A stretch of DNA of 64,000 nt. Source: an uncultured Phycisphaerales bacterium (lineage in GTDB: Bacteria > Planctomycetota > Phycisphaerae > Tepidisphaerales > Tepidisphaeraceae). The number at the start of each line of letters is the position of its first letter. The first letter of the stretch is position 1. The stretch spans positions 160,001 to 224,000 of the forward strand of contig CAVWVQ010000005.1 of NCBI GenBank assembly GCA_963758525.1, written 5' to 3'. This document shows positions 1 to 52,975 of this stretch, in pieces. Below the pieces are notes generated by a model. That model was given only the letters and a program-made list of their open reading frames with translations. It did not search any database and was not told the DNA's origin. Both the position numbers and the translations under genes were made by a program.

Positions 1-1595
1 CCGATCGCGACCAAAAAGTTGCCGATCGGTCCGGCTGCGACAAAGCGGCTGCTGGTGTCGTCGACCTGATTCGCCTGGACGGAGACCGTGTAGCTGCCAT
101 TGTATGCGGTCGTCCATCCGCCTGCGGGGGCGGGGATGCTGTAGGTGGCAACGCGGGTGTTTGAACCGGAATTTGAATCCACGCCAACGAAGGTGGCGAG
201 CTGGGTGAATCCGGGGCCGCTGACCTGCAGATCCGTGCTGCCCAGTGACGTGGTATCAATCGGCGAAAAACCGGCATACGTCACGACCAGCTTTTCCGCC
301 TGGCTGCCAGCGGCGTTGACGTTCGCTCCAGACGTCAGACTCGCGGTGGGATTTGCGCTTGCAACGACCGTCAGCGGGGCGGTGACGGCGGTATAGGCAT
401 ATCGCGTGTCCCCCTGCGCATCCGTCACTTTCGCGACAAGCCAATAAGTGCCCGGCGTCACGCCTGCGGTCGAGAGCGTAGAGGTGCTATTGGTAATCGT
501 GTTCGCCTGTGCCAGGTTCACACTGCCGAGCGTGTAGGCGAAGGCGTTGTTGTAGGGATTGCGGTCGGTGTCCAGATAGAACGTAACGGTGTCGGCACTG
601 TCGCGATCCTCATGGAGATAGCTGACCTGCATCGAGTTGTTGGTGGCGACAGTGTTGCCGCCCATGACTGCAAGATCGGTAACGTTGCCCCACTGCGTGC
701 CCACCTGACCGGCGGCAGTGCGCGTGCCGGTGCCCCCCGAGGCCGTCCAGACTCCGCTCAGAGGGCGAGCGCCGCCCTCGATGGCGGAATACAGGAAGCC
801 GGTGGCGTCGTGCGCCGGCATGGTGGGGGTGTTGCCGTACCAGTCGCTGTAGATCGGACCTTCGCCGCTGTAGGTGGCAGTCTGGTCGATCGTCCCGTTG
901 TAGTAGCCGGCGGGCGCAAGATGGGGCGTCGAGTAGCCGGCATCGTCGGTGTCGAGCCAATAGACGTTGAGGTTGTAGGCGCCGGCGACGGGGTCGCCGT
1001 CATTGATCTGGCTGGCACTTCCATCATTGCGCCAGTAGTTGTCCGAAAACGCGACGTTGTCATAGAGGGTCGTGGGCGCATCGCCCTGAGCGGCGATCGG
1101 ATCGGGGTCGCAATACGTTTCCTGATCGACCCAGATGCCCGCCTGCCCGAGTGTTTGCGAGATGCCGTCCATCAAAGACGCGCCGCGGCTGACGCCGACT
1201 TCGTGAATCGGCAGCGAGGCCAGGTCTATGCCGTCAACCGGAGTGCTCATCATGTAATTGGCGATGACCGAGCCGATGTAGCTTCCGGGGTAGATCGGGT
1301 TGGCGCTGATGTTGTAATAATCGATGATCAGGATGATCTCGCCGCTGGTGCTGGTTTGCGGGGTCGCTGTTCCACTCACATGAGAGATGCTTCCAAAGAG
1401 TTGTTCGTTGGCAGGGTTGGCGTCGACCGTCAGTACGTATTGCGGGACTTGAGAAGGGCCGCCCATTTTGGCGGTGATCTCAGCGGCCATTGTCTGGATC
1501 CAGCCGTTGGTTCCCCCGAGCCGTCCGGTAGCGAGGATGGTCACGCCCGCGAAGAGTGTTCGAGACTCCAGGGTTTCAACGAATGAGCGATTCAT
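1..1595 (-). CDS. Secreted LEPRxLL-type protein, copy 1 (alpha/beta-hydrolase-like domain plus Ig-like domains); 3' end runs off the window
   Basis: Hand translation from ATG at 1595 gives MNRSFVETLESRTLFAGVTILATGRLGGTNGW...IHEVGVSRGA...CDPDP...STPHLAP, open to the window edge (so absent from the ORF track). Close paralog of 1949-5058 and 9244-11726. Confidence 0.85.
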   Translation of the reverse strand, partial: MNRSFVETLESRTLFAGVTILATGRLGGTNGWIQTMAAEITAKMGGPSQVPQYVLTVDANPANEQLFGSISHVSGTATPQTSTSGEIILIIDYYNISANPIYPGSYIGSVIANYMMSTPVDGIDLASLPIHEVGVSRGASLMDGISQTLGQAGIWVDQETYCDPDPIAAQGDAPTTLYDNVAFSDNYWRNDGSASQINDGDPVAGAYNLNVYWLDTDDAGYSTPHLAPAGYYNGTIDQTATYSGEGPIYSDWYGNTPTMPAHDATGFLYSAIEGGARPLSGVWTASGGTGTRTAAGQVGTQWGNVTDLAVMGGNTVATNNSMQVSYLHEDRDSADTVTFYLDTDRNPYNNAFAYTLGSVNLAQANTITNSTSTLSTAGVTPGTYWLVAKVTDAQGDTRYAYTAVTAPLTVVASANPTASLTSGANVNAAGSQAEKLVVTYAGFSPIDTTSLGSTDLQVSGPGFTQLATFVGVDSNSGSNTRVATYSIPAPAGGWTTAYNGSYTVSVQANQVDDTSSRFVAAGPIGNFLVAI

Positions 1596-1948
1596 GATTG
1601 TCCGTGCCTTCTATGAGGGGTCGTGAGGATCTGAAGTTGCAACTCGATCCTGTCGCGGGTTCTAGACTCACGCGCGATCCACGTCCCATAGCTGAAAGAG
1701 CCGCATTTGCACTGTGCAGGCCAGCCAAATCAGCTTGCCCCAGAAACCCGGAAAAGCAAATTCCTGCCACGTCGGTTTCGATGCGTGGGCATGGCCGAAA
1801 AACGCCAGAAGTGACCAGATTGGAGGGGACCGTCCGTAGAGACCGCGGGATCCCATGAGACGCTGTCAAGGTGGGGAAGCCGGGCCAGTCCGGCGAGTCT
1901 TATGATGGTGACGAGCGCGGGTCCGGCGCGCCCGATTTCTGGTGCACC

Positions 1949-4900
1949 TCATCCAGCGACCAAGGCTGCCGCGATCAGATCCACGCTGCCGCCGTTTCCG
2001 TTGATGTTGGTGGATTTGACGTAACTGATGGTGAGCGTCTGTCCGGCCGAAGCGGCCTTGTAGGTGATGGTGTAGAGATTGGTGTAGAGGCCGTTGCCCG
2101 AGGCGCTGAGCACAACATCAGGGGCCGCTCCGCCGGAGAGATGGGCCGTGAGTGTGCTGCCGCTGGAATTTCCGCCGGCATAGACGTAAAGCGTGCGTGT
2201 GGTGGTGTCCGCCGGAACGGTGAAGGAATACCCGGCGCCGATGGCATTATTGGCCCAGATGTAGGCGTTGTCCGCCGAATCGCTTGCGGTCGGCGCGCCA
2301 TCATTCCAGGAAACCGCGCGGCTCGGATCGTAATACGACCCGACATTTCCCGATCCGAGAACGGTGACGTTGCTGATCTGCGAGGAGCCGGCGGCCTTGT
2401 GATCGAAATTGCCATAGACGTTGCCGCGTCCCCAATGGGCCCAGTCGCTGGTGCCGAGCGCGGTGAGATTGTAGCTGGAGGCGGCAACTGCCTGCACTCC
2501 GCTGAGGGAGCCGGCGCCGGAAGCGGGGATGGCGATTTGGAAATTTCCCAGCGTGGCCTGCACCGCAAAGTTGTTGCTGGTATCAGCGACGGAGCCGCCG
2601 ACAAGGGTGACGGTGTAGCTTCCGTTGGCGGCCATGGTCCAGCCGCCAGAGGGCGCGGCGACGGAGTAGGTCGCGGTGATCGTCGCGCCGTTGCCCGAAG
2701 GCGACGCGCTGACGAACTTGGCGGTCTGACTGGTTGGGCCGGTCAGCCCGATGTTGCCGCTGGCCAGACTGGACGCGTTCACTGCGACGTTATCGGTGTA
2801 GACGACTTTCAGCGTCACCGCTGTCGAAGAAGAGGTGATCGGGGGCACCGCCTGAAGAACGGCCTGCGGCTTGGTCGTATCGGCCACCGGCGCGCCTGCG
2901 AGGTATGCGGCGATGAGATCGACGCTGCCGCCGGTGCCGTTGATGTTAGTGCTCTTGACGTAGCTGATGGTCAGCTTCTGGCCCGCTGAAGCAGCCCTGT
3001 AGGTGATGGTGTAGAGGTTCGTGTAGAGAGCATTGCCCGAAGCGGTGAAGACCACATCGGCCGCCGATTTGTCGGAGAGATGGGCGGTGAGGGTTCCGCC
3101 GCTGGAGTATCCACCGGCATCGATGTAGAGCGTCCGCGTGGTGGTGTCCGCGGGAGCAGTGAAGGAGTAGCCGGCGCCGATGGCGTTGTTGGCCCAGATG
3201 TAGCCGTGCTCATTAGTGTCGGATGCGTCGGGCGTTCCATCGGTCCAGGAGGCATTGCGCGAGTTGTCGGAATAGCCGCCATAGCTGCCGTTACCGAGTG
3301 TGGTGACGTTGGAGATCTGTGAGCCGCCGGTCGCTTTGTGGTCGAAGTTGCCGAGGGTGGCTCCGCGGCCCCAGTAAGCCCAGTCAGCCGTGCCCAGAGT
3401 GGTCAGGTTGTAGCTGGAGGCGGGCGCGTTTTGAGAGCCGGCCAGAGAGCCGCCAAGCGCGACCGAGAAGCTGCCGATCATCCCTGAAGGAACGTACTGC
3501 TTGCTGGTGTCATAGACCTGGTTGGCCTGGACGGCAACGGTGTAAGCGCCGTTGTTGGCGGTAGTCCACCCGCCTGCGGGGGCGGGAATGCTGTAGGTGG
3601 CAACGCGCGTGTACGAGCCGCTGCTGGCACTAACGCCGACGTAGGTCGCCAATTGCTTGAAGCCGGGGCCGGTGACTTGCAGATCAGCGCTGTCGAGAGA
3701 AGTCACATTGATCGGAGCGGAACTCGCATAGGTAACCACGAGCTTCTCAGCCTGGCTGGCGGCGCCGCCGACGTTAATGTTCGGGGCGGAAGTCAGACTT
3801 GCGGTCGGTCCGGTGCTTGCGGTGACGGTAAGCGGAGCGGTGACGGCGTTGTAGGTGTAGCGTGTGTCTCCCTGAGCATCTGTCACCTTGGCGACCAGCC
3901 AGTAGGTGCCCGGCGTCACGCCGGCGGTGGAGAGCGCGGCGGTGCTCTTGGTGACCGTGTTCGTCTGTCCCAGATTCACACTGCCGAGTGTGTAAGCGAA
4001 TGCGTTGTTGTACGGATTGCGATCAGAGTCTAGATAGAACGTGATGGTGTCGGCACTGTCGCGGTCTTCGTGGAGATAGCTGACTTGCAATGAATTGCCG
4101 GTGGCGATGCTGCTGCCGCTGGTGACGGCAAGATCGGTCGCATCGCCCCATTGCGTGCCAGCCTGTCCGGCGGCGGTGCGCGTGCCGGTGCCTCCCGACG
4201 CCGTCCAGACTCCGCTCAAAGGGCGCACTCCGCCCTCAATCGCGGAATACAGAAATCCGGTGGCGTTGCGCCCGGCATGGTCGGCGTGTTGCCGTACCAG
4301 TCGCTGTAGATCGGGCCTTCGCCGCTCTGCGTGGCGGTGAGATCGATCGTGCCGTTGTAGTAGCCCGCGGGAGCAAGATGCGGCGTCGAGTAGCCCGCGC
4401 TATCGGTATCGAGAAAAGGCAGGTTCAAGTTGTAAGCGCCATTGACGGGGTCGCCGTCATTAATCTGGCTTGCGCTGCCGTCGTTGCGCCAGTAATTGTC
4501 GACGAATGCGACGTTGTCGTAGATGGTGGTCGCAGCGTCGCCCTGCGCGGCGATCGGATCTGGATCGAGATACGTTTCCTGATCGACCCAGACGCCTGCC
4601 TGACCGAGCGTTTGGGCCATGCCGTCCATCAACGACGATCCGCGGCTGACGCCCACCGCGTGAATCGGAAGGGACGCCAGCAGGATGCCATCCACGGGAG
4701 TGCTCATCATGTAATTGGCGATGACAGAACCGATATATGAGCCGGGATAGATCGGGTTGGCGCTGATGTTGTAATAATTGACAAGGACGATGATCTCGCC
4801 GCTGGTGTTGGTCTGCGGGGTCGCCGTTCCGCTCACGTGAGATATGCTCGCAAACAGTTGCTCGTTGGACGGGTTTGCATCGACCGTCAGCACGTACTGC

Positions 4901-5058
4901 GGAACCTGAGATGCGCCGCCCAGCTTGGCGGTGATCTCATTGGCCATGGTCTGCATCCAGCCGTTGGTGCCCCCGAGCCTTCCGGTGGCAAGGACGGTCA
5001 CCCCTGCAAAAAGTCTGCGCGGCTCCAATGTTTCGACGAATGAAAATGAGCGATTCAT
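1949..5058 (-). CDS. Secreted LEPRxLL-type protein, copy 2 (hydrolase-like domain, Ig-like domains, two C-terminal DWA(H/Y)WG repeat domains); one frameshift near 4272
   Basis: ORF 4216-5112 (MNRSFSFVETLEPRRLFAG... from ATG 5058) joins ORF 1949-4228. Alignment with copy 1 (MPAHDATGFLYS) shows one missing base in ATGCCGG-GCGCAAC. Confidence 0.85.
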
Positions 5059-5504
5059 GATTTTTCCCGAACTCCTGCACATGATGCCGAACAAGTGACG
5101 ACCCAGAAACATTGCACTTTTAAGTAGTCATTCCTAAAGATCTGAGGAGCTGGATCGGTCTGGCGAATGTTGCGCCGTCAGCATTGCGGATTGGATCAAT
5201 AAAGCAAGTCCTTGACTTTTCATTTTATAGGACCTGAACGTGGGCTAATACGCTCAAAAGCGTCATATTATGGATCAAGCCGCTGCCCCGGCGGGCAGTG
5301 CGATGAGTCCGCTGTTAAGCGGGGAAAGATCAGGCGTGGTTCTCGCTCCCTGATCGTCGATATAGGAACCGGATTCCTGATAATCCCTTTGACGGCCATG
5401 GGAAAAACGCAAATTGCAAAGCTGGTCTGACCGACTATCCAACATGGAGTGGGTCGTCGGCCCGACGTTGGCTCTCTCCTCGCCTCTGCAAAGTTGGTGT
5501 CATC

Positions 5505-6766
5505 ATGCGACGAACACTGGGTATCCTGCTTCTCACCGTTGCCGTCCTGCAGCTAGGGTTTCGGGGACTGCAACGCGTGCGCGCTGACGTGCCCGCCTGG
5601 GATTTTGCCTCGGTTTATGCCGCGGCGCGGACTTGGATGCATGGCGGAGATCCGTACGATCTGCCCGCCGTGGTCGCGACCTGGCGCGGCGCGGGGGCTT
5701 TCGCTCATCGCGATGTCAGCTACTTCGCGACCGTCTACCCACCAAGCTCGCTGGTGACGATCATGCCGCTGGCGGTGTTGCCCGCCGCTCCCGCAATGAT
5801 CCTGTGGATGGCACTGACCATCGCTTTGTTGGCACTGCAATTTCTGGCGCTGGGGGACATGGCGCATCTGGACCGGCGCGACCCGCGGATGCTCATTCTC
5901 ATCGGTGCGTCACTCGCCTCGGCGGCGCTGCAATTCGGCATTCTTTCGGGCCAACTCTCCATACCAGCGATATCGCTTTGCATCATCGCGTTCTGGTGCG
6001 CTGGCCGGCAACGCGACACGCTCGCCGGCGTTCTCCTCGGATTGGCGTGCGCGGTCAAGCCGCAGGTTGCGGCGCCGTTTGCCCTCTACTACATGATTCT
6101 TCGCAGGTTCAATCTGGTTGGATTCACCATCCTCATTGGGGCGGCGATCTGGATCGTGGCGCTGATCGCGATGCACGGTTCGCACGTCGACTGGATCGAT
6201 GGATGGAAACACAGCGTCGCCGAAACAACGCGCGTCGGCGGCGTGAACGATTATGGGTGGAGCAATCGTTTTCGCGATGAAATCGTGGACCTGAAAATGG
6301 TGCTCGTCGGGTTCCTGCATCGCCCGGCAGTTCTGCGCGCGGGGTGGAGAGCATCGTGGTCGTGCTCGTCGCCTGTTATGTAGCGTGGTTCCCCCGCGGC
6401 GAAAAGCGGACGTCGCGGAATGAGTTGCTGGCGCTGTCGGCTCTTGGAGCAATTTGCCTGCTCCCGGTCTATCACCGCGTGTATGACGTTGCCCTGCTCA
6501 CCACCGCCCTTGCGTGGGCTCTGGCCGAACTGGACGGGCCGCGGCGGGGCTATGCCAGGGCGCTGCTGATCCCGATGGCGTTTTTTCTCATCCCGTTCGA
6601 CAGCGTCAAATCGGTTGGCAACCGCCTGCATCGTCTTTCAGGACTTTCGCAAAAGTGGTGGTGGCAGTCCCTTGTCCTGCCGCATTATGCCTGGGCGCTG
6701 CTGGCGACAACGATCGTGCTGCTGCTGGCAATGCGGGCTTTATCTACCAAACCCAGTCAAAGGTAG
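5505..6766 (+). CDS. GT-C fold glycosyltransferase, GT87/DUF2029-like; frameshift near 6344
   Basis: Motifs DFASVYAAA..W..GGDPY, YPP, GQ and AVKPQ; multi-TM. ORF 5505-6383 continues as 6344-6766 (PVYHRVYD) after one missing G in a G run. Confidence 0.8.
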
Positions 6767-6783
6767 TGGGGGCGCGTAAAGGG

Positions 6784-6807
6784 AGCCGCGGATGTACATC
6801 CGCGGCT
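6784..6807. repeat. Perfect 24-bp palindrome (REP-like or bidirectional terminator)
   Basis: AGCCGCGGATGT-ACATCCGCGGCT, between the convergent GT87 and GT2 genes. Confidence 0.7.
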
Positions 6808-6865
6808 TAGATCTGTTTCCGTACATTTGTAACTAAACGGGAGAGAACTGCTCGGTGAGATCAAG

Positions 6866-7771
6866 TCACGCTATCAACTGCGGATTCTCGGCTTCCTCGA
6901 CCGCGTTCAGGTCGAAGGCAGTTCGCGAATGCTTGAGCTGCCAAAGCTCCTTGAACGTGCGCAGGATTACGCGAAGGTTGGCGCCGGTGGGTTTGCCGGC
7001 GGTGCGCGGATAATGCGGAACGGCAGTTTCGTCCCAGACAATCCTGGCGTTCTTCAGCGCGAAGAACATCTCCCCATTGATCAGCGCGCCGGTGGCATAG
7101 ACCGGGCGGATGGTTTTCCAAATCGACCGACGAAATAGTTTCATCCCGCAGTTCAAGTCCGAGGGGTGAACCCCCAGCATGGTGCGGACGAGCAAGTTGT
7201 ACAAACGGCTGTTCAGTTTCCGCTGGAACGTGTCGGCCCGCTTTTCGCGGAAGCCGGTGACGTAATCGGCTTGAGCGGTCAACGGGAAGAGCCGGCTGAT
7301 GTCGCTGGCATGGAACTGCCCGTCAGAGTCCATGAATGCAATCCAATTCTTCTCGGCCTGATCGCACCCGGACCGCACCGCCGCGCCATATCCCTGATTT
7401 TTCTCGTGATGGACCACTTTCAGCTTCGGTATTTCACTTTGGAGCTTCCGCAGAAGGTCGAGCGACCCGTCGCTCGACCCGTCATCAGTCACGATAATCT
7501 CGCCATCGATCTGCGCGGCGGCAAACCATTGCTGTGAATCGCGGATCGTCTTCTCGATATTCTGCACTTCGTTAAAGCATGGAAGCACCAAGGACAGGCC
7601 GCCCTCGACCAGCGTTCCCGATGCATCCGGGCGCGTTGGAGTTTGCGGCACGGCGTGCCGCAGGGCACCCGTTCCGGCGGCGGAACGCTGCTGTTCCGGC
7701 CACGCTTTGGCAACGCCGCCAGAGGCGTTTCCGTGCGCGGAAGGACGGTTCTGGATTTGAGCAATCGACAT
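6866..7771 (-). CDS. Glycosyltransferase family 2, DPM1/polyprenol-phosphate sugar synthase-like
   Basis: LSLVLPCFNE, TDDGSSDGS, HEKNQGYGAAVRSG, FMDSDGQF, DLNCGMKLFRR. Start uncertain (7771 or 7813). Confidence 0.85.
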   Translation of the reverse strand: MSIAQIQNRPSAHGNASGGVAKAWPEQQRSAAGTGALRHAVPQTPTRPDASGTLVEGGLSLVLPCFNEVQNIEKTIRDSQQWFAAAQIDGEIIVTDDGSSDGSLDLLRKLQSEIPKLKVVHHEKNQGYGAAVRSGCDQAEKNWIAFMDSDGQFHASDISRLFPLTAQADYVTGFREKRADTFQRKLNSRLYNLLVRTMLGVHPSDLNCGMKLFRRSIWKTIRPVYATGALINGEMFFALKNARIVWDETAVPHYPRTAGKPTGANLRVILRTFKELWQLKHSRTAFDLNAVEEAENPQLIA

Positions 7772-7942
7772 CAGCGTTCTCCAGCGGTTGGTTCCGCGCT
7801 TAGTATTCATCACCGCTCGCGATAGGACAAATACTTCTTCTGATTATTTGTTTCGGCATCGGGCTAAAGCAAGTTAACGCACCGGAATGTCCGATATTGC
7901 TAACGCTACGCGAAAGGCCCCCGCAGTCATCGCTAAGTGATC

Positions 7943-9022
7943 TTACCCATTTAACCACGCCGTACGCGGCGATCGCCCTAATACTAGCACCACTACGATC
8001 GACCCAATCAGCGTAAGGAAGAAGTTCAGCATGTCCAGTGCTGGCGAGGCAGGAAAATGCATGTGCGACACCAAGGCGCGAACGAACTCAGCAATCAGCA
8101 CATGGCATAGATAAATCCCATAGCTATATCGTCCAATCCGCGCCAAGATCGGAACCCACGCTCCGTTCCACGGCGCCAGTGCCGCAAGCATGCAACCCAG
8201 CCCCGACAGCGCACGAGGTACAAGTTGAATGCCGTTAATGGCTTGCTGCACGGAACAGACGGTTGCGAGAACGATCCCCACGATCCCCGTTGTCATCGAA
8301 ACGGAGTACACCACCGGCCCCGCTGTCATAAACCAGGCAAACGCCAAGCCCCAACACGCGGCAGGCAGCGCTCGCCAATCCTGCACGTAGGCGTAGGTCG
8401 GATTGTCAAACACCTGGTTCCAACTGGCGGGCATGTGAACATAGGCAATCACGGCGCCGGCCGCGACCGCAGTCAGGATCAGCGGCCAGCGGAACTTGCG
8501 ATGGTCCCGCAACACTGTCCAATGGATCAGAGCCAGCAGAATGGAGCCGGCCAGAAGAAACGGCAAAAACCAAAGGTGATATTCGATCCCCTTCCACAAG
8601 AGGCCGGGATGTAATCGAACCAGGCTCTTGTGCGCAAGGATCCTTCCCGCATCACGGGCAAAGAGATAAATCGCGCTCCAGGCGAGGAAGGGGTAATAAA
8701 GCCGCTTGACGCGCCCCAGAACGTACTGCCAAAACGTTTTGTCTGTTTTTCGGCGGAAAGAGAGCGACTGAAAGTAGAACGAGGCAAATAAGTAAAACGG
8801 CACGGCGAAGCGGAATAGGTCCCGTGAAGCATCCAGCGCCGGATACCTCACTGAATGGATGTAGACGATTCCCGCGGCAGCAACGAGCCTGATCACGTCA
8901 ATCGCTTCGTTGCGCGGCTTGGAACGCACAACCGGTTGCGACTCACCGCTAATGACGTCTTTGGCAGGGGGGTTGCTGCACAGCGCCGCCCCGGATGGCT
9001 GAACCGCGTATTCCGTGCTCAT
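7943..9022 (-). CDS. Acyltransferase family 3 (OafA-like membrane O-acyltransferase)
   Basis: RNEAIDVIR...H, RFAVPFY, RVKRLYYPFLAW, YHLWFL, GRYSYGIYLCH; multi-TM. Confidence 0.85.
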   Translation of the reverse strand: MSTEYAVQPSGAALCSNPPAKDVISGESQPVVRSKPRNEAIDVIRLVAAAGIVYIHSVRYPALDASRDLFRFAVPFYLFASFYFQSLSFRRKTDKTFWQYVLGRVKRLYYPFLAWSAIYLFARDAGRILAHKSLVRLHPGLLWKGIEYHLWFLPFLLAGSILLALIHWTVLRDHRKFRWPLILTAVAAGAVIAYVHMPASWNQVFDNPTYAYVQDWRALPAACWGLAFAWFMTAGPVVYSVSMTTGIVGIVLATVCSVQQAINGIQLVPRALSGLGCMLAALAPWNGAWVPILARIGRYSYGIYLCHVLIAEFVRALVSHMHFPASPALDMLNFFLTLIGSIVVVLVLGRSPRTAWLNG

Positions 9023-9243
9023 GATAGTTCGCATTCTCGGAACCGTTGGGGGCCGCTGTCAATTTTGAGCGAGAAGATTTCCCAAAGGATTCGGCGATCC
9101 TTTCCCTGACCTCGGTTTGCCTGCGTCCGTTTCTGTTGCATATTCAATTCGACGCACACAGCGCTGCCTGAGCCGGCTTTGCTCCGAATCGGAGATTGCC
9201 GTGCATCATCGGCGGGATGTGCCCGGGAATTTATTCCAAAGCC

Positions 9244-11726
9244 ATGCATAGCTCGATGATTGAAACCCTGGAGTCCCGCACGCTGTTCGCGGGTGTAACG
9301 ATTCTTGCCACTGGCAGGCTCGGCGGAACCAATGGCTGGATACAGACAATGTCGGACGCGATCACGACCCAACTCGGCGGGCCGTCGCAGGTCCCGCAAT
9401 ATGTGCTGTCGATCAACGCGGATCCCAACACCGAAGACCTGGTTCCCAGCATTCAGCATGTTGATGGCACCGCCACGCCGCAAACCAGCAGCAGCGGCGA
9501 GATCATCCTGGTGATCGACTATTACAACATCAGCGCCAACCCAATCTATTCGTCGACATACATCGGCTCGGTTATCGCTGATTACATGATGAATACCCCG
9601 GTCGATGGCATCCAACTCGCGTCGCTTCCGATCCACGAGATCGGCGTCAGTCGCGGAGCTGCAGTGATGGACGGGATCTCCCAGACCCTTGGACAGGCCG
9701 GCGTCTGGGTCGACCAGGAAACGTATTGCGATCCCGATCCGATCGCGGCGCAGGGGGATCCGCCATCCACCATTTATGACAACGTTGCTTTTGTCGACGA
9801 CTACTGGCGCAACGATGGAAGCGCGAGTCAGATCAACGACGGCAATCCCGTCAACGGCGCATCGAACCTGAATGTGTACTGGCTGGATAGTGACGATGCC
9901 GGCTACTCCACTCCGCATCTTGCCCCTGCTGGCTATTACGTCGGCACAATCGACCAAAATGCCACCTACAGCGGCGAAGGTCCGATTTACAGCGATTGGT
10001 ATGGGACCACGCCTGACATGCCCGCACGCGATCAAACCGGATGGATTTATTCCAGCATCGTCGGGGCGGCCCGCCCGCTGAGCGGCGTGTGGGCAGCCTC
10101 GGGCGGCACGGGCACGCGCACCGCCGCCGGGCAGACAGACGCACAATGGGGCAACGCAACGGACCTGGCCGTCAGTGGAGGTAACACAGTCACTGCCAAC
10201 AACTCGATGCAGGTGAGCTACATCCATCAGGATCGCGACAGCGCGGACACAATCACGTTTTATCTGGACTCTGATCGCAATCCCTGCAACAACGCATTCG
10301 CTTACACGCTCGGCAGCGTGAACCTGCCGGAGACGGATCTGATCACCAAGAGCACTGCCAGGCTTTCCACCGCGGGCGTGGCGCCCGGCACGTACTGGCT
10401 GTGCGCGAAGATTACCGATGCCCAGGGAAATACGCGCTACACCTACAATGCGGTGACATCGCCGCTCACGGTGCAGCGCCCGGCGCCATCAGCGGCAGGG
10501 TCTTCAATGACGTGAACGCCGACGGCGTACTTGACGCAGGCGACCACGGCGCGGCCGGTCGAGTGGTCTACGTCGATCTCGAGGGAAGCGGACAGGATCA
10601 GCCGGCCGATCCTTGCGCGGTCACGGACGCCAACGGCAATTACACCATCACCGGCCTGACGCCTGGAATCGCGCTGACCGTGCGCGAGGTCGTACCTGCC
10701 GGAATGCGGCAGACCGCTGCGCCGTCATCAACGGTGACGCTCTCCGCCGGGCAGACAGCGACCGTCGCCAACTTCGCAACAACTCAAATTCTGGGCGGCC
10801 TGCGCGGCACGGTGTTCAACGACCTGGACGGCAACGGTGTCTTGGACCCCGGCGAGCCTGGTTTGGCGGGGCGCATGGTATACGTCGACCTGGACGGAAG
10901 CGGCCAATACAAAACAACCGATCCGTCTGCAATCACCGACGCGAACGGCAACTACACGATCAACGGCTTGACCCCCGGGGGGGCAGTTATTGTCCGGGAA
11001 GCAGTCCCGGCTGGAATGCGCGAGACGACGGCCCCAGCCAGTGCCGTGACCATCGTTCCGAGCGAGATTGTGACCGTCGCTGATTTCGCAACAACCCAGA
11101 TTCCTGCCGCCGTCACTGGCAGGTCCTTCGACGACACCAACGGCAACGGCGTGCAGGATGCCGGCGAAGCGAGCGTCGCCGGACTCCTGGTCTACGTCGA
11201 TCTGGACGGCAGTGGGAAATACGAATCGAACGATCCGTCTGCTGTCACCGACGCGAACGGCAATTATGCGATCACGGGCTTGGCGCCCGGTGTTCCGCTG
11301 ATCATTGACGCGGTCATCCCCAGCGACATGCGACAGACGGCGGCGCCCGCCGCGCCCTTGACCCTCTCGGCAGGGCAGACGTTGAGCGGCGCTGACTTTG
11401 GAATCACCCAAACCGCGCTGATCCGCGGAGTTGTCGTCCTCAAGGACATTCCCGACACCCCGGCGCTGAGTTCGCCGAACGGCTTCGAGCTGATTCTCAC
11501 GCAGCATCCACTGCGCGGGAAGGTGAAGAAGTTCATCAGCTTCACGAATCCTGACGGAACTTTCGCCTTCAATGGCATCGAACCCGATGCAAGCGACACT
11601 CTGCAGCTTGTGAAACGGAAAGGATTTAAGCTCGCACCACACTCCCGCGATCGTTACAAACTGCGCATCAGTGATGGGGAGGTGGCAAACGGGATTGTCT
11701 TCTCACAGGTTCCGGTGTTCCGGTGA
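9244..11726 (+). CDS. Secreted LEPRxLL-type protein, copy 3 (hydrolase-like domain, Ig-like domain, three SdrD-B-like repeats); frameshift near 10473
   Basis: MHSSMIETLESRTLFAG... in ORF 9196-10515 joins ORF 10401-11726, which has three G.VF.D..G.G..D.GE..(V)YVDL.GSG repeats. One missing base at GTG-CAGCG. Confidence 0.85.
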
Positions 11727-11869
11727 TCCCTCCTGCGAGTCGCGTGCGGTTGAATAGAGAGGTTTTCGGTACACTGATACGATAACGCACGTCTGGCCAG
11801 TAGCCGACTCGGAATCAGCCCGATAATGTTACAATCCGGTCCTGCTGCTTGGCGGCGGCCGTTGGACCG

Positions 11870-13095
11870 ATGACTAGCTCGTCGATGAGTCTCTCCCTGA
11901 AAGAATCCTCGCCGGCCTCCGCGGCGCGCCCGGCCGCGGAGAGCATCAGGAAGTTTGCTGTCGCGATGTCGCTGGTCGCGGCGCTTCGCCTCTGTGTGCT
12001 CTGCACCGGGCTGCTGTCGGTGCATCTGGCGCCCAAAGGCACCGAGCCGCTCTTCAACTTTGCCCATCCCTGGCTGGCGTTCGATGCGCGCAGCTACCGC
12101 GAACTGGCTTTGCATGGCTATGCGGCAGACCGGAAGGGCACCCCATATCTTGACGGAACCACATTCACCCTGATCGCATACTTCCCGGCTTGGCCGTTCG
12201 TCAGCAGGGTGCTGTCGTTGATCCTGCCGATCGACGTCGCGATGGTGCTCCTGTCCAATGTCTGTTCAATCATTGGATTCGGCTTCCTATATGCGTGGGC
12301 ACGCCGGCTGGCGGGCGCTCGCGCAGCGTTGATCTGTGTTCTCATCGCCGCCACCTTCCCTGGAGCCGTCTCCTTTGCCGCCGGAATGACCGAGGGCCCG
12401 TTCTTCATGCTGGTCACGATCACCCTCTGGCTGCTGGAAAGCGAACGGTTCTACTCCGCCGCCGTCCTGGCCGGCATCGCGACTGCCACCCGTCCGACGG
12501 GGCTCGCCTTGGCAATGATCGTGCCGATGTACGCATGGCTGCGTCACGGGAGCGTTCCACTGCAAAAGCGAGTGACGACCTTCGCCATCCTCAGCGCGAT
12601 CGGCCTAACCGGGATCGTCGGATACGAAGCGTTCCTATGGCACCGTTACGATTCACCCACGGCATATTTCGAAGCGCAAAAACATTGGAACCACCTGGAA
12701 GAACGAAGGCTTCAAGCCGAGGCTGCGAATCACATCAATCGCCATTCCCCCGACTTTTTCCTCGAAAGCATGACGCGCCCGCAGGTCTGGAATCGGGGGA
12801 TCGCCATCGCAACGCTGATCGTCATTCTCGCCGGACTGCTCAAGCCGGGCGCATTCCCCGCGTCACGTTATTGCTGCCACTGATCATCTTTGTGATGACA
12901 AGTCTTCCGGGACGGGGGCTGCGCATCAGCTCCGTGCCGCGATACGAATCGGCCGCCGCGCCCCTGTTCCTGCTGATCGCAATCTGGCTGTTTCCGCGAC
13001 GCCGGCTGGTCGTTTTGCTCGGTCTCCTCCTGATTCAGTTTTCGATTCAGATCTACTACGCCGCCCTTTTCCCCAGAGAGATCTGGGTTGGCTGA
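11870..13095 (+). CDS. GT-C fold mannosyltransferase-like protein (PIG-V/GT76-like); frameshift near 12850
   Basis: FDARSYRELALHGY, AYFPAWP, FPGAVSF.AGMTEGPF, ATATRPTG, AQKHW. The C-terminus (SVPRY...WVG) is in ORF 12190-13095. Confidence 0.75.
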
Positions 13096-13139
13096 ATGGG
13101 AAGTGAAATCAGCGGTCTTCTCTTACGTCCCAGAGCACG

Positions 13140-13178
13140 CCCGTACCCTTCGCGCGAACGGTGCGCGAAGGGTACGGG
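13140..13178. terminator. 16-bp perfect stem-loop between convergent genes (likely bidirectional terminator)
   Basis: CCCGTACCCTTCGCGC-GAACGGT-GCGCGAAGGGTACGGG. Confidence 0.7.
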
Positions 13179-13199
13179 ACATGAATCCGAGGCGTCAGA

Positions 13200-15533
13200 T
13201 TATGCCAACGCCGCTGCGATGAGATCAACACTGCCGCCGGAGCCGTTGATGTTGGTGCTCTTCACATAGCTGAGCGTCAACTTCTGTCCGGCGGATGCCG
13301 CCTTGTAGGTGATGGTGTAGAGATTCGTGTAAAGCCCGTTGCCCGACGCGGTGATGACAACGTCAGGCGCCGATCCATCGGAGAGATGGGCGGTGAGGGT
13401 GCTGCCGCTGGAGTTGCCGCCGGCATAAACGTACAGCGTTCGCGTGGTCGTGTCGGCAGGAGCCGTGAAGGCGTAGCCCGCGCCGATCGCGTTGTTGGCC
13501 CAGATGTAGCTGTGATCCGAGTCACTCGAGGTGGGGGTGCCGTCGCTCCATTGGACCGTGCGGGAGGAATCGTAATATGCGCCCTCGCTTCCCGAGCCGA
13601 GCACCTGGACGTTGCTGATCTGCGACCCGCCGCTGGCTTTGTGATCGAAGTTGCCGTAGCCGTTGCCGCGGCCCCAATGAGCCCAGTCCCTGGCGCCGAT
13701 CGCGGTGAGGTTGTACGACGAAGCGGCGGACACCATCTTCCCCGAGAAAGAACCCGAGCCCGACGAAGTATTTGAGCTGCTCGGAGTGCTCGTCTGTGCG
13801 GGGGCCGAATTCGTCGAACCACCCGTCAGATACGCCGCGACCAGGTCCGCGCTGCCGTTGGTGCCGACCACGTTGGCGGTTTTCAGCAGCGTGACGGTCA
13901 GATGCTGATTGGCCGACGACGCGTGATACGTGATCGTGTACTGCTTGGTGTAGATCCCCGAGGCAGAGCTGGTGGCGGTGAAGTCCGCCGACGACCCATC
14001 GGAGAGATGAGCCGTGAGCGTCGTTCCCGTGTTGTTGCCGCCTGCGATGACCGTCAACGTCCGGGTGGTCGTGTCGGCCGGAACGTTGAACGAAAAGCCC
14101 GTGTTCAGGGCGCCATTGCTCCAGATATAGCCGTTGTCATTGGAGTCCGAACCCGCCGGGCTTCCGTCGCTCCACGATGCACTGCGCGAGCCGTCGGAAT
14201 AACCCCCGGAGTTGGCTCCGCTGCCGACGGTGCTCACATTGGAGATCTGCGATCCGCCGCTCGATTTATGATCGAAGTTGCCGGAATTGCCGCCGCGGCC
14301 CCAGTGTGCCCAGTCGCTGCTGCCCAGCGACGTGAGATTGTACGACGAGGGCGCGTTGGCAACCTGGCCGGACAGCGAGTTGCTGCCGGAGGAAACCGTC
14401 GTGGTCGGCGTTGTGGAGGTGTTGGTGTTGGTGTTGGTGTTTGTCGAACCGGATGACGCCTGCACGTTTGCGCCGGCGTTCGTCGGCATCGAAGGAGGAT
14501 TGGAACTGCCGAGGGAAACGAGGTGATCGCCCGAACCGCTGATCGGCCCGATGTTCCACGGGACGCTGTCCAACGCAGAGCGCTGTCCGCCGACCACCGT
14601 GTTGTTATTGCTGCTGACGCCGCCGTAAGCGCCGTTCAGAATGTAATTTCCCCAGTTCCAGACATAATTGTTGTTCATGGTAATACCGCTGTACCCCATG
14701 ATCTCCACAGCGGATTTGGCCCACACCTGCACGTTTTGCGCCGGTCCGCTCTGAACCAGCACGTTGTTGCTGATGTTGATGTTCTGACCCTGGTCGGTGT
14801 ACGGCGCGTTCCCGCTGCCGCCATCCGTGCAGGAGATGCCGATATGTGAATCCTCGCCACCCGAACCCTGCTGGAGCCAGTCGCTCATGTAGTTGTTGGT
14901 GACGGTCAGATTATTGATCGAGTGCTGCAATTCGAAGCCGAAGCGGGTCGCATGCGTGACGACGTTGCCCGAGATCTCCAGCCCGTTGGCGGGGGAGTAG
15001 GAAACAAAGTGGATCGGCTCGATGACGTAATCAAAACGGTTATTGTCGACCTTGTTCCCTCCGGAGGGATAACCGTAGACGCCGCAGTTCAGATTGGTGA
15101 ACGTATTGTTGCTGACGCTGCTGTTGGCCATTGCGGTGTTGACGAATCCGCCGGCCGTTGACGAGTTTTCGACGAGGTTGTTGTGGAAATTGAGATTGTT
15201 CGTGTAGTCGGCCGAGACTTCCGCGCCGTTGAAGACAAATCCCGAGAGATTGACGTTGCTGGTGTAGCCGACGTTCACGATCGACCCGCTCCCGCCCTGG
15301 AAGACCGCGCCATTGCCCACGTACGTGCGGTTCCCCGGCAACTGCACCGTCGCACCTCCGTTTACCCCATAGGTGCCCGAAGAGAAATTAATCGTGTCCC
15401 CGTTATTGCTCCCATTGATGGCGGCAATGTAATTCCCGGGGTTCACGTTCACGACGCTGAACATCTGTCGTGCTTCGAGCCTCTCGGTGTGAACGGAGCA
15501 GCGAACGAAGCGCTGTTTGCGCTGAAATCCCAT
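13200..15533 (-). CDS. Secreted LEPRxLL-type protein with right-handed parallel beta-helix, Ser/Thr linker and two DWAHWG repeat domains
   Basis: RBS AAGGAGG before ATG 15533; ERLEARQMFS; GDTINFSSGTY followed by Asn-ladder repeats (ISGNVV, VTNNYM, ISNNVL). C-terminal domains are near-identical to those of copy 2. Confidence 0.85.
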   Translation of the reverse strand: MGFQRKQRFVRCSVHTERLEARQMFSVVNVNPGNYIAAINGSNNGDTINFSSGTYGVNGGATVQLPGNRTYVGNGAVFQGGSGSIVNVGYTSNVNLSGFVFNGAEVSADYTNNLNFHNNLVENSSTAGGFVNTAMANSSVSNNTFTNLNCGVYGYPSGGNKVDNNRFDYVIEPIHFVSYSPANGLEISGNVVTHATRFGFELQHSINNLTVTNNYMSDWLQQGSGGEDSHIGISCTDGGSGNAPYTDQGQNINISNNVLVQSGPAQNVQVWAKSAVEIMGYSGITMNNNYVWNWGNYILNGAYGGVSSNNNTVVGGQRSALDSVPWNIGPISGSGDHLVSLGSSNPPSMPTNAGANVQASSGSTNTNTNTNTSTTPTTTVSSGSNSLSGQVANAPSSYNLTSLGSSDWAHWGRGGNSGNFDHKSSGGSQISNVSTVGSGANSGGYSDGSRSASWSDGSPAGSDSNDNGYIWSNGALNTGFSFNVPADTTTRTLTVIAGGNNTGTTLTAHLSDGSSADFTATSSASGIYTKQYTITYHASSANQHLTVTLLKTANVVGTNGSADLVAAYLTGGSTNSAPAQTSTPSSSNTSSGSGSFSGKMVSAASSYNLTAIGARDWAHWGRGNGYGNFDHKASGGSQISNVQVLGSGSEGAYYDSSRTVQWSDGTPTSSDSDHSYIWANNAIGAGYAFTAPADTTTRTLYVYAGGNSSGSTLTAHLSDGSAPDVVITASGNGLYTNLYTITYKAASAGQKLTLSYVKSTNINGSGGSVDLIAAALA

Positions 15534-26829: not shown

Positions 26830-28101
26830 TTACGCTGACGTGAGTTGCGATTCCAACTGCGTCAACTGATCCGCGACGTCGCGCTCGGTCTTGGCGTCGG
26901 AGTCGACGGTTCGCACCGCGTGAAGCACGGTAGTGTGATCGCGCCCGCCGAAGTAGCCGCCGATCTCTTCCAGCGAGTAGCGGGTATAGCGCCGCGCGAG
27001 GTACATGCAGACCTGGCGGGGAAACGCGATGCTCTTGTGGCGGCGCTTTCCCTGCAGGTCGCTGAGACGCACATTGTAATACTTGGTGACTGCGTCGAGG
27101 ATCTGCTGAATCGTGATCCGCTTCTGCTCCGGCACCACCGAGTCGCCCAGTGCGCTCTTGGCGAGCTCGAGGTCGATTCGCCCGTCCTGCAGCATGCCAA
27201 GGCCCTGCAGCTTGGTGATCGCCCCTTCCAATTCACGGGTGTTGTTCTCCACCTTGGCGGCGATGTAGCAGACTACATCGTCCGGCAGCGTCAGCCCGCG
27301 CATCCGCGCTTTCTTCTGCAGGATCGCCACGCGTGTTTCGTAGCACGGCTTCTCGATCCGAGCGACAAGGCCCCAGTTGAAGCGGCTCACCAGCCGTTCT
27401 TCGAGCTCGGGAATTTCGCTGGGCGGGCAGTCGGCGGAGAGAATGATCTGCTTATGCTGTTGATAAAGTGTGTTAAACGTGTGGAAAAACTCTTCTTGTG
27501 TGCGATCGCGTCCCGCCAGGAAGTGAATGTCGTCAATGACCAGCAGATCGAGATGGCGATACCTGGTGCGGAAGTGGTGCATGTCGCCGTTTTCGATCGC
27601 GAGGATGAACTGATTGATGAACGCGTCGCAGGAGAGATAGAGGATGCGCGCATCCTGCTTGTGCAGCAGCACTTTCTGGCAGATCGCCTGGAGCAGGTGC
27701 GTTTTGCCCAGCCCGACCCCGCCATGGATGAACAGGGGGTTGTATGCGTTGCCCGGTTGCTCGGCGACGGCCAGCGACGCGGCGTGCGGGAGGCGGTTGC
27801 ACGGGCCGGTCACGAAATTCTCAAAAAGATAATCCGGGTTCAGCGGCAGCGGCTCGTCCCCCTCGTTGAAGACGCCGCCGCGCGGAAGGCTGTTGCAGTG
27901 AAAGCTGACGGCGATCAACCGCCCGGTGACCGCCTGTGCGGCGATGGTGAACGGCTGCTGGCACTGGCTCTGACAGAAGTTGAGCTGCGCGGGCGTCGCC
28001 ACGGTGACCTGTACAATCCCGTGGGTGAGCTGACGCGGGCTCATCTCATCGAACCAGGTTCGGTTGAGGCTCGGGTGCTGCGAGCGCACCTGCTGCAGCA
28101 T
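26830..28101 (-). CDS. dnaA: Chromosomal replication initiator DnaA (true start probably upstream, near 28184, through an indel)
   Basis: LNPDYLFENFV.G, YNPLFIHGGVGLGKTHL, LLVIDDIHFL, QEEFFHTFN, SRFNWGL, RELEGA, RQVCMYL, FGGRDHTTVLHA. Confidence 0.95.
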   Translation of the reverse strand: MLQQVRSQHPSLNRTWFDEMSPRQLTHGIVQVTVATPAQLNFCQSQCQQPFTIAAQAVTGRLIAVSFHCNSLPRGGVFNEGDEPLPLNPDYLFENFVTGPCNRLPHAASLAVAEQPGNAYNPLFIHGGVGLGKTHLLQAICQKVLLHKQDARILYLSCDAFINQFILAIENGDMHHFRTRYRHLDLLVIDDIHFLAGRDRTQEEFFHTFNTLYQQHKQIILSADCPPSEIPELEERLVSRFNWGLVARIEKPCYETRVAILQKKARMRGLTLPDDVVCYIAAKVENNTRELEGAITKLQGLGMLQDGRIDLELAKSALGDSVVPEQKRITIQQILDAVTKYYNVRLSDLQGKRRHKSIAFPRQVCMYLARRYTRYSLEEIGGYFGGRDHTTVLHAVRTVDSDAKTERDVADQLTQLESQLTSA

Positions 28102-52899: not shown

Positions 52900-52975
52900 C
52901 GGGGCGTAGCTCAGCTTGGTTTAGAGCACCAGACTGGGGGTCTGGGGGTCGCAGGTTCAAATCCTGTCGCCCCGA
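52900..52975 (+). tRNA. tRNA-Pro(GGG)
   Basis: Acceptor stem CGGGGCG/CGCCCCG, discriminator A; anticodon arm CCAGA-CTGGGGG-TCTGG; T arm GCAGG-TTCAAAT-CCTGT. CCA is not encoded. Confidence 0.96.

What the first reader, a model, noticed from the sequence alone, without database searches (positions are those of the whole stretch)
1..15533. Candidate surface glycosylation system: GT-C enzymes, a lipid-sugar synthase and an acyltransferase interleaved with four secreted modular proteins
Seen: a DPM1-like GT2, two different GT-C fold transferases (GT87-like, PIG-V/GT76-like) and an acyltransferase-3 alternate with four LE(P/S/A)RxxF-type, Ser/Thr-rich secreted proteins. No Wzx/Wzy or ABC exporter lies in this part of the window. 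Known: GT-C enzymes use polyprenol-phosphate sugars made by DPM1-like GT2s and act outside the cytoplasm, as in PIM and GPI assembly. Inference: the locus builds an acylated glycan or glycolipid, which either decorates the neighbouring proteins or is remodelled by their hydrolase domains. The gene set loosely parallels GPI-pathway roles (donor synthase, two mannosyltransferases, acylase, deacylase); this is an analogy, not demonstrated homology.
Basis: partly seen in the sequence, partly recalled or inferred. Interest (0 to 1): 0.72.

Follow-up and report, generated by a model that had tools for sequence, protein, structure and literature searches.

The report
Surface-decorating cassette with secreted lipase-like partner
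A soil-type planctomycete carries a small, patchily shared gene set that likely adds sugars and acyl groups to a cell-surface glycan and likely trims them with a secreted lipase-like enzyme; this is a variant of known bacterial surface-modification systems, not a GPI pathway.

Summary
The eight genes are real: GT87, a DPM1/ArnC-type GT2, a stand-alone AT3, a PIG-V-like GT-C and four LExRxL proteins. Five of them are frameshifted, at a rate compatible with this assembly's errors. Three of the four secreted proteins are recent paralogues (74-87% identical) of one unnamed lipase-like alpha/beta-hydrolase. Their repeated 180-aa module folds like a carbohydrate-binding module. The fourth protein has a beta-helix instead.

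The linkage is conserved. The five-gene order recurs intact in L037/L038, and GT87-AT3-hydrolase recurs in L039 and G075. The two same-genus genomes lack the set, and G052 holds the orthologues unlinked. The conserved core is GT87 + AT3 + hydrolase domain. The Ser/Thr-rich tails are not conserved and are ordinary for this genome's LExRxL proteins, so glycosylation of the neighbours is not favoured.

Best reading: a three-component-type module that decorates and O-acylates an envelope glycan or glycolipid made elsewhere, with a co-inherited secreted esterase that likely edits it. The GPI parallel is an analogy only. Sugar, acceptor and hydrolase substrate are untested.

The parts
1..1595 (-). 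SP1, N-terminal part: LExR motif and lipase-like alpha/beta-hydrolase domain. It continues out of the window to G000:C5:157196 with three CBM-like repeats; frameshift near C5:158700
1949..5058 (-). SP2: LExR motif, hydrolase domain (87% identical to SP1), two CBM-like repeats; frameshift near 4272
5505..6766 (+). GT87 GT-C glycosyltransferase; frameshift near 6343; intact 423-aa orthologue in L037 (73%); invariant Asp33 in the first outer loop
6866..7681 (-). GT2 of the ArnC/GtrB/DPM-synthase type, predicted polyprenol-phosphate sugar synthase, no C-terminal membrane helices (longest ORF starts at 7813)
7943..9034 (-). Stand-alone AT3 membrane acyltransferase, no SGNH domain; head-to-head with the hydrolase gene
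9244..11726 (+). SP3: LExR motif, hydrolase domain (Ser130, Asp157, His219 in alignment A2 numbering), three SdrD_B repeats; frameshift near 10479
11849..13095 (+). PIG-V/Gpi18-like GT-C (WxAxD...Y...GY, IAxFP, TEGPF motifs); frameshift near 12845; intact 407-aa orthologue in L037
13200..15533 (-). SP4: LExR motif, right-handed beta-helix domain, Ser/Thr linkers, two CBM-like repeats; no hydrolase domain; not seen in the syntenic relatives

Best explanation
This is a patchily inherited gene module whose conserved core is GT87, a stand-alone AT3 and a secreted-type lipase-like hydrolase; it likely decorates an envelope glycan or glycolipid made elsewhere with sugar branches and O-acyl groups, and the hydrolase likely trims ester-linked acyl groups from it. 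Shown: gene content, synteny, folds and conserved catalytic-type residues. From established knowledge: GT-C enzymes use polyprenol-phosphate sugars outside the cytoplasm, GT2s of this type make those donors, and stand-alone AT3s acylate surface glycans. Inferred: the local GT2 (or the GT2-GtrA gene just left of the window) supplies and flips the donor; GT87 and, in this sub-lineage, the PIG-V-like enzyme add one or two sugars; AT3 acylates the product; the exported hydrolase binds surface glycan through CBM-like modules and removes acyl groups. The acceptor could be LPS (lpxB is present) or another glycolipid. The sugar is unknown; mannose is only the family default.
For: Exact order GT87(+) GT2(-) AT3(-) hydrolase-SdrD(+) GT-C(+) with intact ORFs at 61-73% identity in L037; the near-identical L038 ends inside the hydrolase gene. 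GT87-AT3-hydrolase-hydrolase recurs in L039 and G075:C149, with AT3 and hydrolase head-to-head in all. All four linked hydrolases fall in one clade (SH-aLRT 100, quick tree, 26 of 53 rows), in which GHSRG is replaced by GVSRG/SISRG-type motifs. Pairwise identities of GT87, AT3 and hydrolase rank alike over 5 sources (Spearman 0.66-0.86, 10 non-independent pairs). The two same-genus genomes (LeuRS 75-76%) give no hydrolase, AT3 or PIG-V-like match at the thresholds used, while G075 (LeuRS 68%) has the set. Hydrolase model pLDDT 90.6, best folds DUF915-type hydrolases, phospholipase A1 and pancreatic lipases (Z 14-15.7). Its partners in homologues are carbohydrate-binding-type domains: NPCBM, F5/8C, DUF1349, and the repeat modelled here as a CBM-like jelly roll (pLDDT 96.4, Z 10.3 to CBM61). 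GT87 lies within 6.5 kb of the hydrolase in 3 of 37 loci of 29 family genomes against 0.24 expected. No polymerase or exporter lies in the locus, and the genome's only GtrA match is 4 kb left of the window.
Against: G052 holds the next-best orthologues of GT87, AT3, hydrolase and PIG-V-like enzyme on four different contigs with other neighbours. 34 of 37 family hydrolase loci have no GT87 nearby. All Pfam-confirmed GT-C together give 5 of 37 loci against about 2.0 expected (P about 0.05, kin not independent). No GT-C or AT3 was recognised at 10 of 10 loci outside the family. A fourth paralogue in this genome (C3:4841838) has no such neighbours. The GT2 has a match in only 1 of 140 family genomes (34%; at most 18 candidates scored per genome), so L039 and G075 must use another donor synthase. 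No substrate was tested, and a shared fold shows no function.
Confidence: 0.5

Rival explanations
1. The hydrolases are independent secreted esterases for outside polymers or lipids. They sit beside GT87 and AT3 only because a small surface-gene island has been inherited as a block, and GT87 and AT3 modify the envelope on their own.
For: Most family members are unlinked (34 of 37 loci without GT87). G052 is unlinked. The paralogue on C3 stands alone. The paralogues have expanded and shuffled their tails. Only three other lineages show the linkage.
Against: The head-to-head AT3-hydrolase arrangement persists at about 50-65% protein identity in genomes of different genera while GT2, the PIG-V-like gene and all flanking genes change. 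Other LExR genes are not enriched near GT-C genes (1 of 68).
Confidence: 0.22
2. The GT-C enzymes glycosylate the neighbouring Ser/Thr-rich proteins, for example by extending O-mannose started by a PMT-type enzyme encoded elsewhere.
For: GT87 PimE extends mannose chains on mycobacterial glycoproteins (PMC12757957, passages). GtrB with a GT-C glucosylates Ser/Thr-rich regions in streptococci (PMC12041528, abstract and passages). The genome has 5 PMT matches elsewhere. SP1, SP2 and SP4 are about 25% Ser+Thr.
Against: Syntenic relatives carry other tails: SdrD (17% Ser+Thr), RTX repeats (10-14%) or NPCBM (21%). The Ser/Thr level is ordinary for this genome's LExR proteins, and most of it lies in folded beta-sandwich repeats. 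Neither GT-C matches PF02366. AT3 would be left unexplained.
Confidence: 0.15
3. The hydrolase is an acyl-transfer partner rather than an eraser: AT3 passes an acyl group across the inner membrane to the serine of the alpha/beta domain, which places it on the glycan, as the SGNH domain does in AT3-SGNH fusions.
For: AT3 has no SGNH domain and is head-to-head with the hydrolase in all four linked lineages. The linked clade keeps Ser, Asp and His but changes the nucleophile elbow, and its inner clade also loses the His of the N-terminal THG motif. Whether stand-alone AT3s need a partner is raised as an open question in PMC9558356 (passages).
Against: The same review concludes that stand-alone AT3s can work alone. 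LExR proteins are thought to be surface-exposed (PMC8567305, passages), and 19 of 38 homologue ORFs carry RTX-like repeats, which places the enzyme away from an inner-membrane AT3. G052 separates the two genes.
Confidence: 0.09
4. The locus is a bacterial GPI-like pathway that builds an acylated mannosyl glycolipid and attaches it to the neighbouring proteins as an anchor.
For: Role-for-role resemblance: DPM1-type GT2, GT87, PIG-V homologue, AT3 and alpha/beta-hydrolase.
Against: No PGAP1 match in 34 of 34 hydrolases at E<=0.1. No GWT1 match for AT3 at E<=0.05. No Peptidase_C13 above cut-off in the genome. The hydrophobic C-termini are the last strand of the repeat and recur internally. The GT2 and the PIG-V-like gene are absent from the locus in L039 and G075.
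Confidence: 0.03

Closest known systems
Three-component extracytoplasmic glycosylation systems (GtrA/GtrB/GT-C; Citrobacter GT136 system; Gram-positive LTA systems)
   Same: Lipid-linked donor synthase, flippase candidate (GtrA-fused GT2 just outside the window) and GT-C transferase, without polymerase; modifies a glycan made elsewhere (PMC11127046, abstract).
   Different: The GT-Cs are GT87 and PIG-V-like. An AT3 and a secreted lipase-like protein are the conserved partners, and the GT2 and flippase are not part of the conserved core.
Stand-alone AT3 O-acyltransferases (Shigella Oac, WbaK, GumF/G, ExoZ/H, TmaT)
   Same: AT3-only architecture; predicted acylation of a surface glycan or glycolipid (PMC9558356, passages).
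   Different: Consistently head-to-head with an alpha/beta-hydrolase and tail-to-tail with GT87; no phage context found.
Mycobacterial PIM/mannoprotein extension (Ppm1 + PimE, GT87)
   Same: GT87 acting with a polyprenol-phosphate sugar from a DPM1-type GT2.
   Different: Diderm LPS-bearing planctomycete; only a weak match to the PimE-type model NF009915 (29.8 bits, cut-off 413); acceptor unknown.
Eukaryotic GPI biosynthesis (DPM1, PIG-M, PIG-V, PIG-W, PGAP1)
   Same: One true homologue family (PIG-V/Gpi18-like) and matching enzyme classes.
   Different: No transamidase above cut-off, no anchor signal, no PGAP1 or GWT1 profile match; the PIG-A, PIG-L and ethanolamine-phosphate transferase steps are not in the locus.
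Planctomycete LExRxL (PF07595) surface proteins
   Same: N-terminal motif and modular beta-rich tails; 72 such genes in this genome by pattern.
   Different: The catalytic domain and the 180-aa repeat have no Pfam family, and this subfamily is tied to glycan-modifying genes.

Membership tests
Three-component extracytoplasmic glycosylation system | GT-A/GT2 polyprenol-phosphate sugar synthase | tested here: met
   PF00535 95.8 bits; best solved matches are ArnC, with GtrB and DPM synthase also listed. Activity untested.
Three-component extracytoplasmic glycosylation system | GT-C transferase with acidic residue in the first outer loop | tested here: met
   GT87 78.7 bits with invariant D33; second GT-C PMT_2 35 bits with invariant D71.
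Three-component extracytoplasmic glycosylation system | GtrA-type or other flippase linked to the system | tested here: inconclusive
   The genome's only GtrA match (28.4 bits) is fused to another GT2 4 kb left of the window; no homologue of that gene was found at L037, L038, L039 or G075:C149.
Three-component extracytoplasmic glycosylation system | Acts on a glycan assembled by a separate pathway | not testable with these tools
   No polymerase or exporter in the locus; lpxB present elsewhere; acceptor not determined.
GT87 (PF09594) | Profile score above cut-off over the family length | tested here: met
   Window fragment 78.7 bits; intact orthologue covers model positions 2-234 of 237.
GT76 / PIG-V (PF04188) | Profile match to Mannosyl_trans2 | tested here: inconclusive
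   No direct match; 12 of 49 homologues carry PF04188, mostly the distant ones; no solved relative by sequence.
AT3 (PF01757), stand-alone | Full-length AT3 domain, no SGNH fusion | tested here: met
   96.9 bits over model positions 2-324 of 326 in a 363-aa protein; R-x10-H in helix 1 visible in the alignment (motif name recalled).
Alpha/beta-hydrolase, lipase-like | Fold and Ser-Asp-His triad | tested here: met
   Fold Z 14-15.7 to lipases and DUF915-type hydrolases; S130, D157 and H219 conserved in at least 90% of 34 rows; Ser and Asp align with the GHS and LDP motifs of pancreatic lipase-related protein 2 in a weak profile alignment (E 0.2). Triad geometry not measured.
GPI biosynthesis pathway | GPI8-type transamidase and C-terminal anchor signal | tested here: not met
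   One Peptidase_C13 match below cut-off, 70 kb away (genome 91% complete); C-termini are the repeat's last strand.
GPI biosynthesis pathway | PGAP1-family deacylase and PIG-W/GWT1 acylase | tested here: inconclusive
   No PGAP1 profile match in 34 of 34 and no GWT1 match; PGAP1 not among listed fold matches, which does not exclude it.
Protein O-mannosylation (GT39 PMT) | PMT-family initiating transferase in the system | tested here: not met
   The five PF02366 matches lie on C3, none in this locus.
LExRxL / PF07595 exported proteins | N-terminal LExRxL[LF] motif | tested here: met
   Motif in all four; PF07595 weakly matched by 12 of 34 homologues, best E 0.0019. Export itself not tested.

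The most novel reading that the evidence does not exclude
A Tepidisphaeraceae lineage makes a PIM/GPI-like acylated, mannosylated glycolipid on its surface. GT87 and a true PIG-V homologue add the sugars, and AT3 works with a dedicated, active-site-altered lipase subfamily as a writer-eraser pair or a two-protein acyl relay, which would be the first alpha/beta-hydrolase partner described for a stand-alone AT3.
Probability: 0.12. Interest if true: 0.75.

Novelty: new variant of a known kind. Interest (0 to 1): 0.42.

Why it matters
Planctomycete envelopes carry many GT-C genes of unknown role (12-38 PMT_2 matches per genome in 29 genomes). This module names a small testable set and ties an unnamed secreted lipase subfamily to GT87 and AT3. 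If the hydrolase acts on the AT3 product, it bears on an open question in the AT3 field: whether stand-alone AT3s work with a partner. It also yields two widespread domains without a Pfam family: the hydrolase, and a CBM-like repeat with 2,779 representatives.

Tried and rejected
Complex prediction AT3 + hydrolase: no answer, score 0.01; no evidence either way.

Sequencing runs: one low-share DNA run, no RNA holder listed; its contigs did not cover the frameshift sites usefully.

Decay of the locus: 5 frameshifts in about 5,600 aa against 2.0 expected from 27 in 75,581 aa of 193 control genes (P 0.05). With the two breaks in the GT2-GtrA gene it is 7 against 2.3 (P 0.009). lpxB is split too. 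Assembly error is favoured; decay is not excluded.

Export by a type I system, suggested by RTX repeats in 19 of 38 homologue ORFs: no HlyD match above cut-off in this genome, so not used as an argument.

Phage origin: no hydrolase relative in viral contigs; the GT87 scan did not run, so that part is open. No tRNA at the locus or in L001, L037, L038, L039, L054. No conserved motif seen in the AT3-hydrolase intergenic DNA of 4 loci.

C-mannosylation of the repeat's WxxW motif: rejected, because the repeat is absent from syntenic relatives and neither GT-C resembled DPY19 in the Pfam scans.

Equal contig lengths hint at further linked pairs (P0074/P0026, P0097/P0052, P0034/P0009), but no coordinates were available; not counted.

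The ESM Atlas gave only unnamed clusters for the repeat; sequence searches of PDB found nothing for it or for the PIG-V-like family. The HD and beta-helix queries were mis-framed; only their positions were used, and HD was scanned correctly.

Earlier findings of the scan: four look-ups, nothing. Literature searches listed no paper describing this gene set; only titles and abstract starts were seen for most.


Full report
Source and anatomy. The window is G000:C5:160001-224000. Close homologues are labelled Tepidisphaeraceae. Bases 1-15533 hold, left to right: SP1(-), SP2(-), GT87(+), GT2(-), AT3(-), SP3(+), a second GT-C(+) and SP4(-). Pfam confirms GT87, Glycos_transf_2, Acyl_transf_3 and PMT_2 above cut-off. 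The second GT-C has no direct PF04188 match, but 12 of its 49 homologues do and 2 are named Gpi18-like, so PIG-V-like is fair. The GT2 is closest to ArnC, with GtrB and DPM synthase also among its 10 solved matches. SP1 continues past the left edge. Beyond it lie an AlgH/YqgE gene, a split GT2-GtrA gene that is the genome's only GtrA match, and a DUF2079 membrane protein.

Frameshifts. SP1, SP2, GT87, SP3 and the PIG-V-like gene are each split once. In 193 control genes 26 are split (27 breaks in 75,581 aa), giving 2.0 expected against 5 seen (P 0.05). lpxB is also split, and the orthologues in L037 are intact. Assembly error is the likelier cause; decay is not excluded.

The secreted proteins. 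SP1-SP3 share a 400-aa N-terminal region at 74-87% identity, with a fourth paralogue on C3. Its first 300 aa have no Pfam family above cut-off. They model confidently (pLDDT 90.6) as an alpha/beta-hydrolase closest to DUF915-type hydrolases, phospholipase A1 and pancreatic lipases (Z 15.7, 14.4, 14.2; rmsd 3.5-4.3 over about 200 residues). Ser130, Asp157 and His219 are conserved in at least 90% of 34 rows. A 180-aa repeat occurs 7 times here and 7 times on C3 and has 2,779 representatives at E<=0.001. It models as a CBM-like jelly roll (pLDDT 96.4; Z 11.4 to a tailspike domain, 10.3 to CBM61); binding is untested. SP3 ends in three SdrD_B repeats and SP4 has a beta-helix instead of the hydrolase. 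The LExRxL motif is thought to be a planctomycete export signal (PMC8567305, passages; one passage of 10.64898/2026.03.19.712371). The genome has 72 such genes by pattern, and their Ser/Thr content matches that of the proteins here.

Is the linkage more than chance? Inside the genome, 1 of 68 other LExR genes is near a listed GT-C and none near an AT3. The metagenome scan gave 5 loci. L037 has the five-gene order intact at 61-73%, and the near-identical L038 repeats it up to its contig end inside the hydrolase gene. L039 has GT87-AT3-hydrolase-hydrolase. L040 and L041 are too short to judge. Among 140 family genomes, orthologues at 50% or more of GT87 and AT3 occur in 2: G075, where they flank two hydrolase genes, and G052, where GT87, AT3, hydrolase and PIG-V-like genes are on four contigs. 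In G052 the hydrolase pair adjoins a different, PMT_2-like GT-C and GT87 lies near a different AT3. The two same-genus genomes gave no match for the hydrolase, AT3 or PIG-V-like gene and only 27-29% GT87 matches (completeness 94% and 81%). They keep LeuRS-CYTH-HD but continue with other genes, so the locus sits at a synteny break. In a quick IQ-TREE tree (the careful search did not finish) all linked hydrolases fall in one clade with SH-aLRT 100, which has replaced GHSRG; the inner clade has also lost the THG histidine. For the wider family the tie is weak. GT87 is within 6.5 kb in 3 of 37 loci (0.24 expected). Any Pfam-confirmed GT-C is near 5 of 37 (about 2.0 expected, P about 0.05; the last 5 loci were checked for GT87 but not scanned for PMT_2). 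None was recognised at 10 loci outside the family (judged by helix count and NCBIfam). Kin are not independent in these counts.

Mechanism. What is conserved is GT87 + AT3 + hydrolase domain; GT2, the PIG-V-like enzyme, SP4 and the tails vary. From known systems, a GT2, flippase and GT-C without polymerase modify a glycan made elsewhere (PMC11127046, abstract), and stand-alone AT3s acylate O-antigen, exopolysaccharide and glycolipids (PMC9558356, passages). I infer an envelope-decorating module that adds sugars and an O-acyl group, with an exported esterase that binds glycan and likely removes acyl groups (0.5). Hitch-hiking of an unrelated esterase remains possible (0.22). Protein glycosylation has precedent for GT87 (PMC12757957, passages) and for GtrB/GT-C pairs (PMC12041528, abstract and passages), but the supposed acceptors are the least conserved part (0.15). 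An acyl relay from AT3 to the hydrolase is attractive but meets a location problem (0.09). A GPI-like anchor lacks its defining steps (0.03); GT family assignments for PIG-M and PIG-V were read in PMC6801728 (passages). PMC9833829 was seen as a search listing only. No supplements were read.

Verdict. It works like three-component glycosylation plus AT3 acylation, with an unusual co-inherited secreted lipase subfamily. My literature searches showed no description of it, but the library lacks most subscription journals. New variant of a known kind; interest 0.42.

Noticed in passing
L001:5338-8356 (G000:C5:153338-156356, left of the window): A DUF2079 membrane protein divergent from a split GT2-GtrA gene, the genome's only GtrA match; it may supply the flippase for the cassette but was not found at the syntenic loci.
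   Followed up: partly
window:13200-13742 and 13 other copies in G000: An unnamed 180-aa CBM-like domain with a conserved DWxxWG motif; 2,779 representatives; fused in homologues to Ig, Fn3, GDSL, GH59 and GHL15 domains.
   Followed up: partly
L091:2076-13408 (G052:C1) and L087:7031-19999 (G064:C248): A second recurring context of the hydrolase family: methyltransferase plus two related large membrane proteins without Pfam match, one PMT_2-like in the Atlas.
   Followed up: partly
L089, L101, L109, L110: Distant hydrolase homologues lie near a conserved GT2 + methyltransferase pair, with an LPG_synthase_TM gene in three of the four; a UbiA-like gene is near the hydrolase in L065, L091, L100, L109, L110.
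   Followed up: no
L067 (G000:C3:4838423-4841863): Fourth hydrolase paralogue with an expanded SdrD_B array and no glycosyltransferase neighbours.
   Followed up: yes
G000 genome-wide: 26 of 193 sampled genes are frameshifted, including lpxB; split ORFs in this genome should be read with that in mind.
   Followed up: yes
L037:9644-10753: A type II/IV secretion ATPase follows the PIG-V-like gene in this relative; not present at the window's locus.
   Followed up: no
window:28300-30618: 772-aa ORF with a uracil-DNA glycosylase domain only at its C-terminus, next to dnaA (26830-28101); the N-terminal 550 aa had no Pfam match at E<=1e-8.
   Followed up: no
window:47726-59207: MotA/MotB-like pair, tRNA-Pro (52900-52975), a hybrid histidine kinase and a CheB-CheR-PAS fusion; ordinary.
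   Followed up: no
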